A stretch of DNA of 64,000 nt from contig CM000430.1 in the NCBI GenBank assembly GCA_000165345.1, positions 32,001 through 96,000 on the forward strand, given 5' to 3'. Shown here piece by piece: positions 7,301-10,300 of the stretch. The number at the start of each line of letters is the position of its first letter. The first letter of the stretch is position 1. A program made the position numbers.

Positions 7301-10300
7301 CTTTTTTATTTTTTTTAGCTTCGTTGTTAATTGACTTGCAACATTTACCGCCATAACTGTCAAAATTATCCCTTTATGCAATTTTACCTTTATTTTTGAC
7401 ATGATTTATTTTGGCGCCACACTGCTTCACAAATATTTGTTGCAGTAAAGAAGGAGGAAAAAGTTAGAGGTAATGAAAAAGTTTAAATAATACTCAATAA
7501 ATATGAACAACTAAATATTTTTTAAATATACAGTAAACTGGGGGGGGGGGAATAATGAAGAAATAAATTAGAGTTGAGAAAAAAAGAATGTTTTATATTA
7601 GTGGGATGTATTTCAATAATATTAAGTTTAGTGAAGTTTGAGGAAATAAAAGAAAATGAATCTTCAATATAAGAAGAGAAACATAATATTTCTTTTTAGT
7701 TATATAATTTTTTTTTTTTTCATTTATTTTTCTCTATAAGACAATTAATAATAAAAAATACAATGGGCGGGAAATCTCGAGACGGCCTTTAATATTATTA
7801 ATAATTATTTATATTTTATCACTTTTATTATTATTAACTAGTTAAAGTTTGATCTAAAATATTTAGTATATAATTGATAAAACAAAAGGTTTATAAATTA
7901 GTTAACATATTATATATATATTTATTTATTAAAAAAAATTAGTATTTTTAAAAAAGAATTCAGCGGAAAGTCTTGGGATTATATTTAATTAAATTAATAT
8001 AAGGCACAAACTTTAATTTTTTTTTCTGAAAACAAAGATGGCCAAATCAAAGAACCATACTAATCATAATCAGGTAAGTAATAATTTATTGGATTAGAGA
8101 TAACGTGCTTTTCTTTGTATATCATTAAATTTTGTAACATTGAAAAGAAGTTATCCTTGATCTGATTATATATAATTGGATAATTTACTTTTCTCTTTTG
8201 TTATTTAATAATAGAACCGTAAAGCTCACAGAAACGGAATAAAGAAGGCAAAGAGCTACAGAAAGTTACCAACATTCGGTATGAATGCTAAATTCTTAAA
8301 GAACCAGAGATTCTGCAAAAAGGTTGCTATGAAAGAAGCAGCAGCAAAAGCAGCAGCAGCCAAGAAAGCTCTCTTTAACTAAATAAAACCTATTAATATA
8401 AGATTCAATTAGTAGGACATAATTCTATTTATGTCTGATTTCACAATATAGTAGGTATTGAAACATTCTTTTCCAAGCTAGGAGTTTAACCTTATTTTGA
8501 AAATTAATAAATCTCGACTTTTTTGTATTTTCAAACCTTCATTGTTACATCTAATAATACTAGTAAAAGTTAAAAATAATGAAAGAAAGAAATTTGATTT
8601 CTATTATACGAACAATTAGTAACCTAAATTCTAGGATGTCCTATTTTTTTTAATAGTACCTTTGATGGCTTAAAAAAAAAAAAGAAATAGGTTAAACCAA
8701 TCATGTAGAGATGTAATAAAGAAAAATTTAGTTTTCTATATACTCCTTCCAAACCAGTAATGAGTTATCACTACTAATTATTCAGATTAGTCAAACAATG
8801 AGAAACCTAGGTCACCTTCTTCTTCCTCCTCTTCTTCCTTCTTCTTTTCAGCTGGAGCAGAATCTTGTGCTGCACCACCAGATGCTGCTGCTGCACCACC
8901 AGAAACTGCAACACCACCAGTTGGAACAGATTGGAGCTTGGATAAACCAGAGGCTATGACCTCATGGCTGAGTTTTCCACTCATATTGGAGATCAAGACA
9001 TCAATGATAGATTGGTCATATTCGATACCTACAGATTCCAAAACCTTCTTGATATCAGAAGCTGTTGGTTGTTCCTTTCCAGATGAAACGCAAAGTAAGT
9101 AAGCTGCAACGTATTTCATACCCATTGTTAATTAGTCTTGTCAAGGTTTCTTTTTTTTCCTTTAATTATAAAGTCTTAAAAAAAAATTGAATTAAAAAAA
9201 TTCAATAGGCTGATCTTGTCAAGGGAGAAAAATATTATTAACCTAATAAAAAAATGTATTATTGTACTATTTATTCAACAATTAATTTTTATATTTATAC
9301 TAATATAAATATATATTAAATATAATATATATTTACTAAATTATATATTTTATAATACTATTTTGTATTATTATAATATATTATTTAACTTTTCAAATAC
9401 CTTCATTCATTTTACAATTATTTCAAATTTTACTTTGTCTTCAATTTGACAAATTTAACTGTCTTTATTATTTTTACATATTTTATTATTTAATTTCATT
9501 CATTTTATTATACCTGTTTTTTGAAGACGAGACAGCCACGTCTACAACAATTATTACCAAACAAATAAAATATATTTGATGGGCGCCACATCCCGCAATT
9601 TAGGCGGGATTTGATAAATACATAAATTGTTTTGAGGGGGAGAGAGGGGGGTTAGTTAATTATTATTTATATTTAGTTATGAAATAGGATATTAATAATA
9701 TAATAAATTAATAGTAATTAAAAGATATATATAATAAGAGAGAGGGTATATTATTATTTAATGATATTATTATTTGATTAAGGATATAAATATCTAGTAT
9801 TTAATACTAATTAATTGTTATTTAAAAAGAATTTCTCATTAATATAAATTAGTTAATAGCTTGTACTGCATTCTTTTTTTTAAGAAAAAAAATTATCATT
9901 TTATTTACTGCAAGTTTATATTTAAATAAAATTAATTACAATTAAGTGAGGACTTAACAATGGTAAGTTTTTTTTTTCAATAATCTATTATGCACTTTTA
10001 TATTATAAGAAATATTCAAGTGCATACTAAGTATTAACATTTCTAATTATTAAGAAAGACTAACTATAAATTACATGCTATTTAGGCACAATCTAGATTT
10101 ACAAAACTCAAGGGTGAATTATATGAAAAAAACATTGATAAGAGAGGAAGTGTTTCATCTTCTAAGAAGAAGAGTGGATATCCCGTTGGTCCATTTGCTC
10201 TAGGACTCTTTATTTTTGTAGTTATAGGTTCAGCAATCATCCAAATGATAGTTAGTGCTACTACCAAACATTTGGATTAAATATCTTAACTTTCATATTT

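What the first reader, a model, noticed from the sequence alone, without database searches (positions are those of the whole stretch)
9960..10280. Unlisted SERP1/RAMP4 gene whose first exon is only the ATG
The ORF track shows only an antisense 61-aa ORF at 10082..10267. The plus strand has ATG at 9960 directly followed by GTAAGT and an AT-rich 123-nt intron ending CTATTTAG. Exon 2 encodes a 65-aa tail-anchored protein with clear similarity to SERP1/RAMP4 (KNI.KRG.V......G.PVGP..L.LFIFVV.GSAI.Q.I.S). Start-codon-only first exons are easy to miss in automated annotation, so this gene may be missing or mis-stranded in reference annotations.
Basis: partly seen in the sequence, partly recalled or inferred. 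Interest (0 to 1): 0.5.

Follow-up and report, generated by a model that had tools for sequence, protein, structure and literature searches.

The report
Known Cryptosporidium RAMP4 gene, ATG-only exon

Summary
ATG lies at 9960-9962. It is followed by GTAAGT and a 123-nt, 80% A+T intron ending TTTAG at 10085. Exon 2 (10086-10280) has no usable start codon of its own. The spliced product is 65 aa, not 66. It matches Pfam RAMP4 (PF06624) at E=3.3e-22, 78.7 bits against a cutoff of 24, and mammalian SERP1 in PDB 8RJB at E=2.7e-8.

The same ATG|GT(A/G)GT...AG|GC structure, with introns of 121-299 nt, is found in C. meleagridis, C. sp. chipmunk genotype I, C. bovis and C. ryanae. The sense frame stays open in all five species. 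The antisense 61-aa ORF is broken by stop codons in the other four, so it is a shadow ORF.

The gene is not unlisted. The exact 65-aa protein is EAK87401.1 (C. parvum Iowa II), QOY43202.1, WKS76327.1 and KAL5369825.1. It is called at the same coordinates in a C. parvum assembly that is 100% identical to the window.

The "easy to miss" idea holds in one case: the older C. meleagridis UKMEL1 annotation does not call the gene, although its DNA is intact.

Verdict: real gene, correct model, already known, low interest.

The parts
9960..9962 (+). Exon 1: the initiator ATG only, with A at -3 (AACAATGG context)
   Evidence: ATG followed by GT(A/G)GT is conserved at the gene start in five Cryptosporidium species.
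9963..10085 (+). Phase-0 intron, 123 nt, 80% A+T, donor GTAAGT, acceptor TTTAG. If the intron is retained, the reading frame stops after 7 codons (MVSFFFQ*).
   Evidence: Intron length and sequence diverge between species (121, 123, 166, 299 nt; 34-76% identity) while the exon stays at 73-86% identity.
10059..10064 (+). Candidate branch-point ACTAAC, branch A at 10063, 22 nt upstream of the 3' splice site. Inferred from the consensus only.
   Evidence: The same GACTAACTATAAATT string is present in the chipmunk-genotype intron.
10086..10280 (+). Exon 2: codons 2-65 plus the TAA stop (10278-10280). It encodes the whole RAMP4 domain.
   Evidence: translation. Pfam PF06624, residues 2-58 matching profile positions 1-59 of 60, E=3.3e-22. 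SERP1 in 8RJB.
10197..10253 (+). Codons 39-57, ALGLFIFVVIGSAIIQMIV: the single C-terminal transmembrane segment (tail anchor). Eight residues follow it.
   Evidence: the best 19-aa Kyte-Doolittle window has a mean of 2.56. It aligns with the SERP1 transmembrane domain.
10227..10229 (+). Codon GGT for Gly49, the conserved mid-membrane glycine. In mammalian RAMP4 this glycine is the kink residue.
   Evidence: Invariant column G49 in alignment A2. It aligns with the G of SERP1 'VCGSAIFQ'. The role of the kink is described in PMC11186639.
10082..10267 (-). Antisense 61-aa ORF: a shadow ORF, not a gene
   Evidence: No Pfam hit. The sequence is not among about 15 billion proteins. It is interrupted by 1-2 stop codons in C. 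meleagridis, chipmunk genotype I, C. bovis and C. ryanae.

Best explanation
This is the Cryptosporidium parvum orthologue of RAMP4/SERP1 (yeast Ysy6), a two-exon gene on the + strand that public annotations already hold. Shown here: exon 1 is only the ATG. A 123-nt GT-AG intron in phase 0 must be removed to join it to exon 2. The 65-aa product has a basic N-terminal half, one C-terminal hydrophobic segment with a conserved mid-membrane glycine, and an 8-residue tail. Inferred from homology to the mammalian protein: it inserts post-translationally as a tail-anchored ER protein. Its N-terminal domain binds the 60S subunit near the exit tunnel. Its kinked transmembrane helix sits in the lateral gate of Sec61, holding the pore wide and completing its lumenal funnel during co-translational translocation. 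The antisense 61-aa ORF is a by-product of the coding strand.
For: The sequence anatomy is. The Pfam RAMP4 match is full length: 78.7 bits against a gathering score of 24, E=3.3e-22. The product matches SERP1 chains of ribosome-Sec61 structures 8RJB/8RJC/8RJD at E=2.7e-8, with VGP and FIFVV.GSAI.Q conserved. A profile search returned 890 proteins at E<=0.001; all 120 listed carry PF06624, and most of those with a source name are called stress-associated ER protein. The exact product is present as EAK87401.1, QOY43202.1, WKS76327.1 and KAL5369825.1, and UniRef names it RAMP4. The gene is called at the same 321-nt span in C. parvum assemblies, one of them 100% identical to the window over 5.6 kb. 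The ATG-only exon and intron position are conserved in four other species, with introns of 121-299 nt. Between species, synonymous codon differences outnumber non-synonymous ones (for example 29:10 for C. parvum against C. ryanae). The sense frame is open in all five species, while the antisense frame has stops in four. Hydropathy and charge fit a tail anchor. The mechanism comes from Lewis et al. 2024, PMC11186639. Baptista et al. 2022 state that introns in the new C. parvum IOWA-ATCC annotation are 100% RNA-seq supported (PMC8744675), and that annotation appears to include this gene (QOY43202.1, locus tag CPATCC_000926).
Against: I inspected no RNA-seq or cDNA reads for this junction; transcript support is indirect, through the published annotation statement. 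ER localisation, ribosome and Sec61 binding, and any stress response are inferred from about 41% identity to human SERP1 and were not tested in Cryptosporidium. No paper in the searched library discusses this protein in Cryptosporidium. The branch point is assigned from the consensus only.
Confidence: 0.95

Rival explanations
1. The real gene is the minus-strand 61-aa ORF (10082-10267), and the plus-strand RAMP4-like frame is coincidental.
For: It is the only ORF of at least 60 aa in the mechanical list for this interval. Its codon third positions coincide with those of the sense frame, so third-position-biased substitution alone does not separate the two strands (reasoning).
Against: It has no Pfam match, and its sequence is not among about 15 billion predicted proteins. 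It is interrupted by stop codons in C. meleagridis, chipmunk genotype I, C. bovis and C. ryanae, while the sense frame is intact in all. Its synonymous to non-synonymous ratios are near 1:1, against about 2-3:1 in most pairs for the sense frame. The sense product matches RAMP4 at E=3.3e-22.
Confidence: 0.01
2. The gene is real, but the model is wrong at the 5' end: the true start lies in a different, longer upstream exon or uses another donor, so the ATG-only exon is an annotation artefact.
For: I examined no transcript reads. Very short first exons are rarely validated individually.
Against: The Pfam profile begins at position 1 on residue 2, and the 65-aa product has the family's typical length of about 64-66 aa. 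ATGGT(A/G)GT sits at the equivalent point in all five species, while the flanking upstream and intron sequences diverge. Independent annotations of at least five species use the same model. Baptista et al. report that all introns are RNA-seq supported.
Confidence: 0.03
3. It is a decaying pseudogene or an unexpressed relic of RAMP4.
For: The protein is tiny and its function is dispensable in some eukaryotes: Lewis et al. note that RAMP4 is largely absent from several early-branching groups.
Against: The frame, splice sites and start codon are intact in five species at up to 27% nucleotide divergence. Synonymous changes are in excess, and the functional motifs (KNI..RG.V, VGP, G49-S-A) are invariant.
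Confidence: 0.01

Closest known systems
Mammalian RAMP4 / SERP1 (and paralogue SERP2); solved in ribosome-Sec61 complexes PDB 8RJB, 8RJC, 8RJD
   Same: Same Pfam family (PF06624) and same size (65 against 66 aa). Same layout: a basic N-terminal domain, a linker, and a single C-terminal transmembrane segment with a conserved GSA glycine. The motifs KNI..RG.V, VGP and LF.FVV.GSA..Q.I.S are invariant.
   Different: Only about 41% identity. The linker is 3 residues shorter. The C-terminal tail differs (ATTKHLD against IRMGM). Ribosome and Sec61 binding and stress induction have not been tested in Cryptosporidium.
Annotated Cryptosporidium orthologues: EAK87401.1 / QOY43202.1 (C. parvum), CUV04389.1 (C. 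hominis), TRY53183.1 (C. tyzzeri), KAK9173780.1 (C. meleagridis), and the C. bovis, C. ryanae and chipmunk genotype I proteins
   Same: The C. parvum entries are identical in sequence, and the others are 82-98% identical. The two-exon structure with an ATG-only first exon is the same. So is the synteny next to ribosomal proteins LP2 and L29e.
   Different: Nothing differs for C. parvum; the window gene is this gene. In the original Iowa II record it is named only 'hypothetical protein'.
Yeast Ysy6p
   Same: Lewis et al. treat it as the fungal RAMP4 homologue, and it is predicted to bind Sec61 in the same way (PMC11186639).

Membership tests
RAMP4/SERP (Pfam PF06624) | Sequence match to the family profile above the curated gathering score, over the full profile | tested here: met
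   78.7 bits against a cutoff of 24, E=3.3e-22; residues 2-58 match profile positions 1-59 of 60. A profile search returns 890 family members.
RAMP4/SERP (Pfam PF06624) | Very small protein of about 60-70 aa | tested here: met
   65 aa. Full-length family members are mostly 63-68 aa.
RAMP4/SERP (Pfam PF06624) | Single transmembrane segment near the C-terminus (tail-anchored topology) with a short lumenal tail | tested here: met
   The only strongly hydrophobic window is residues 39-57 (mean Kyte-Doolittle 2.56), followed by 8 residues. This is a sequence-based prediction only.
RAMP4/SERP (Pfam PF06624) | Conserved glycine at the mid-point of the transmembrane domain (the kink) within the G-S-A motif | tested here: met
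   G49-S50-A51 are invariant across six Cryptosporidium sequences and human SERP1 and align with the PDB SERP1 chain. The role of the kink is from PMC11186639.
RAMP4/SERP (Pfam PF06624) | Basic N-terminal ribosome-binding domain | tested here: inconclusive
   The N-terminal 36 residues carry 9 K/R against 3 D/E, and E12, N17, R21, G22 and V24 are invariant with human SERP1. Binding itself was not tested.
RAMP4/SERP (Pfam PF06624) | ER localisation and association with the ribosome-Sec61 translocon (occupancy of the lateral gate) | not testable with these tools
   This needs tagging, fractionation or cryo-EM in Cryptosporidium, or at least an AF2-multimer model with CpSec61, which was not run.
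RAMP4/SERP (Pfam PF06624) | Induction by, or protective role in, ER stress (the basis of the name SERP) | not testable with these tools
   No expression data were available. No paper in the searched library covers it in Cryptosporidium.

The most novel reading that the evidence does not exclude
The start-codon-only first exon is conserved in all five Cryptosporidium species sampled (two lineages: parvum/meleagridis/chipmunk genotype I and bovis/ryanae). It makes RAMP4 synthesis strictly dependent on splicing, because the unspliced mRNA encodes only 3-7 codons before a stop. The most novel reading not excluded is that this 5'-most intron is kept for regulation, such as intron-mediated enhancement or stage- or stress-dependent intron retention that switches translocon composition, rather than as a neutral relic. 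A second part of that reading is that the gene is still missing from some public Cryptosporidium annotations beyond C. meleagridis UKMEL1.
Probability: 0.1. Interest if true: 0.25.

Novelty: already known. Interest (0 to 1): 0.07.

Why it matters
It matters little for discovery. The gene, its intron and its family assignment are already in GenBank and UniProt for C. parvum and several sister species. The practical value is small but real. It shows that raw six-frame ORF tracks miss this class of gene and can suggest the wrong strand. It also identifies one public annotation (C. meleagridis UKMEL1) that lacks the gene. RAMP4 was recently proposed to be in effect a fourth subunit of the Sec61 channel (PMC11186639), so its presence in a parasite with a reduced genome is a modest point for people who study apicomplexan secretion.

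Tried and rejected
1. The antisense 61-aa ORF as the gene: rejected. It has no family match, it is absent from the protein collection, and it has stops in four other species.
2. Third-codon-position bias as a strand discriminator: the antisense frame shares its wobble positions with the sense frame, so I dropped this argument and used stop codons and synonymous/non-synonymous counts instead.
3. A structured RNA, such as a snoRNA, in the intron or flanks: Rfam at E<=1 over 9200-10500 found nothing.
4. ATGGTAAGT as a marker for more ATG-only exons: the only other copy (42381-42389, minus strand) is an internal Met codon at the end of exon 1 of an AHSA1-domain gene.
5. Deeper conservation of the intron position (C. 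muris, C. andersoni, other apicomplexans): the single-sequence search found only Cryptosporidium. The profile search listing was swamped by metazoan SERP1/2 and showed no further alveolate sequences in its top 120, so this stays open.
6. Literature on this protein in Cryptosporidium: nothing relevant.
7. Structure prediction was not run. For a 65-aa single-helix tail-anchored protein it would not change the verdict.

Full report
**Observation.** The region reads as the first-stage reader said.
- On the + strand, ATG is at 9960-9962, in an A-rich context (AACAATGG).
- It is followed directly by GTAAGT.
- The next 123 nt (9963-10085) are 80% A+T and end CTATTTAG.
- From 10086 an open frame runs to TAA at 10278-10280.
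- That frame is closed directly upstream by the TAG that holds the acceptor AG.
- Its only in-frame Met is residue 55, so it cannot be translated without splicing.
- Joining ATG to 10086 gives 198 nt, which is 65 codons plus the stop: MAQSRFTKLKGELYEKNIDKRGSVSSSKKKSGYPVGPFALGLFIFVVIGSAIIQMIVSATTKHLD.

It gave 65 aa for exon 2 and 66 aa for the product; the true values are 64 and 65. With a 60-aa minimum, the mechanical ORF list shows only the antisense 61-aa ORF at 10082-10267. At a 30-aa minimum, an out-of-frame 42-aa + strand ORF also appears.

**Is it more than chance?** The string ATGGTAAGT is not significant by itself: 2 copies in the window against 0.49 expected, and 9 of 100 shuffles reach 2. 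The protein evidence is decisive.
- The 65-aa product matches Pfam RAMP4 (PF06624) over the whole profile (positions 1-59 of 60) at 78.7 bits against a gathering score of 24, E=3.3e-22. The antisense product matches nothing.
- Against PDB sequences, the best hit is the stress-associated ER protein 1 chain of the ribosome-Sec61 structures 8RJB/8RJC/8RJD, at E=2.7e-8.
- A profile search of the 5.8-billion-protein collection returned 890 proteins at E<=0.001. All 120 listed carry PF06624, and most of those with a source name are called stress-associated endoplasmic reticulum protein 1 or 2.

**Source organism, and whether the gene is listed.** An exact-sequence look-up shows that this 65-aa protein is already in public databases.
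- It is EAK87401.1 (C. parvum Iowa II, named 'hypothetical protein').
- It is QOY43202.1 (CPATCC_000926, C. parvum).
- It is WKS76327.1 and KAL5369825.1.
- UniRef names it 'Ribosome associated membrane protein RAMP4'.
- A variant with one residue different is listed for C. hominis and C. tyzzeri, and a variant with three residues different for C. meleagridis. These are named 'Stress-associated endoplasmic reticulum protein'.

The two flanking genes, ribosomal protein LP2 (8787-9125, -) and a 324-aa protein (10483-11457, -), are also exact C. parvum entries. Contig look-ups show the gene called with Pfam RAMP4 between those neighbours in C. parvum chromosome-scale assemblies. One of them (GCA_035232765.1, CP141119.1) is 100% identical to the window over 5,625 bp and calls the gene with exactly the 321-nt span 9960-10280. 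So the window is C. parvum. The gene was unlisted only in the six-frame ORF track, not in the reference annotations.

**Comparative test of the gene model.** I took the orthologous loci of C. sp. chipmunk genotype I, C. bovis and C. ryanae and of C. meleagridis.
- In each, the annotated protein can be rebuilt only by joining a 3-nt first exon (ATG) to exon 2 across a GT(A/G)GT...AG intron.
- The introns are 121, 166, 299 and 123 nt long respectively.
- Exon identity to C. parvum is 75-86%. The introns are 36-76% identical and differ in length.
- The upstream and intron regions barely align outside the closest species.
- In the sense frame, codons with synonymous differences outnumber non-synonymous ones in every species pair: 15:2 for C. 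parvum against C. meleagridis, 23:10 against C. bovis and 29:10 against C. ryanae.

The antisense ORF shares its wobble positions with the sense frame, so third-position bias alone cannot tell the strands apart. Two other observations do. The antisense frame carries one or two stop codons in all four other species, and its synonymous to non-synonymous ratios are close to 1:1. It is therefore a shadow ORF.

If the intron is retained, the frame ends after 3-7 codons in the four species checked (C. parvum, chipmunk genotype I, C. bovis, C. ryanae), for example MVSFFFQ* in C. parvum (read from the sequences). Splicing is therefore obligatory for expression. A consensus-like ACTAAC lies 22 nt upstream of the 3' splice site (10059-10064). 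It is conserved in the chipmunk genotype. Its role as a branch point is inferred.

**Transcript evidence.** I could not inspect reads. Indirect support comes from Baptista et al. 2022 (PMC8744675). They curated all genes of the C. parvum IOWA-ATCC annotation manually against the available molecular evidence and state that its introns are 100% supported by RNA-seq. The CPATCC locus tag on QOY43202.1 indicates that this product belongs to that annotation. Isaza et al. 2015 (PMC4637869) report mean intron lengths of 84-100 nt at 22% G+C in C. parvum. The 123-nt, 20% G+C intron here fits that.

**What the protein probably does (inferred from homology).** The product has 9 K/R against 3 D/E in its first 36 residues. 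It has a single strongly hydrophobic stretch at residues 39-57 and an 8-residue tail, which is the layout of a tail-anchored protein. I aligned it with human SERP1. The invariant columns include E12, N17, R21-G22, V24, V35-G36-P37, the LF.FVV core and G49-S50-A51.

Lewis et al. 2024 (PMC11186639) describe mammalian RAMP4 as follows.
- A hook-shaped N-terminal domain binds rRNA helices and the ribosomal proteins eL19, eL22 and eL31.
- A flexible linker leads to a transmembrane helix that is kinked at a conserved glycine.
- That helix intercalates into the Sec61 lateral gate. [quoted passage not shown]
- The authors propose that it acts as a surrogate signal peptide during most co-translational translocation.

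The conserved glycine and its flanking motif are present here, so the same mode of action is the most likely one for the Cryptosporidium protein. ER localisation, ribosome and Sec61 binding and any stress response remain untested. I found no paper on the protein in Cryptosporidium.

**The 'easy to miss' claim.** This is true in a limited way. In the C. meleagridis UKMEL1 assembly (GCA_001593445.1, locus L006) the called genes go from the 324-aa neighbour straight to LP2, with nothing called between them. Yet the DNA holds an intact ATG|123-nt intron|exon 2 copy at L006 1854-2174 (-). That copy encodes the same protein that the newer C. meleagridis annotation calls at the equivalent place. No protein from C. 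muris, C. andersoni, C. ubiquitum or C. baileyi appeared in the searches.

**Other checks.** Rfam found no RNA family in 9200-10500 at E<=1, so nothing suggests an intron-hosted RNA.

**Verdict.** The suggestion that the gene is missing from reference annotations is wrong for C. parvum. This is an already-known, ordinary housekeeping gene with a mildly unusual but conserved exon structure. Interest is low.

Noticed in passing
L006 1854-2174 (-) (C. meleagridis UKMEL1, GCA_001593445.1, JIBK01000023.1): An intact RAMP4 gene (ATG, 123-nt intron, exon 2) has no gene call in this older public annotation. The newer C. meleagridis assembly GCA_039657295.1 calls it.
   Followed up: yes
window 8038-8382 (+): The ribosomal protein L29e gene has a 36-nt first exon (8038-8073), a GTAAGT donor and a 141-nt intron. 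It is another short 5' exon that a plain ORF track misses. The annotated product length varies between assemblies (67, 68 and 71 aa), so the gene models differ.
   Followed up: partly
window 41993-42503 (-): The only other ATGGTAAGT in the window (42381-42389) is an internal Met codon at the end of exon 1 of a 144-aa AHSA1-domain protein (Pfam PF08327, E=1.6e-18) with a 76-nt intron (42311-42386). It is not an ATG-only exon.
   Followed up: partly
window 10483-11457 (-); L002 and L003: The convergent 324-aa neighbour has no Pfam match above threshold; the only hit is a weak R3H-assoc N-terminal match at E=0.0085. Some annotations nonetheless name it 'R3H domain containing protein'. No gene is called at the equivalent place in C. 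bovis or C. ryanae, where the Brix-domain gene follows RAMP4 after about 390 bp. It may therefore be specific to the parvum, hominis, meleagridis and chipmunk lineage.
   Followed up: partly
window 9969-9978 (poly-T at the 5' end of the intron): There is a length polymorphism between C. parvum assemblies: 10 T in the window and in GCA_035232765.1, against 11 T in GCA_048859185.1, which gives a 124-nt intron. This could be a real strain difference or a homopolymer sequencing error.
   Followed up: no
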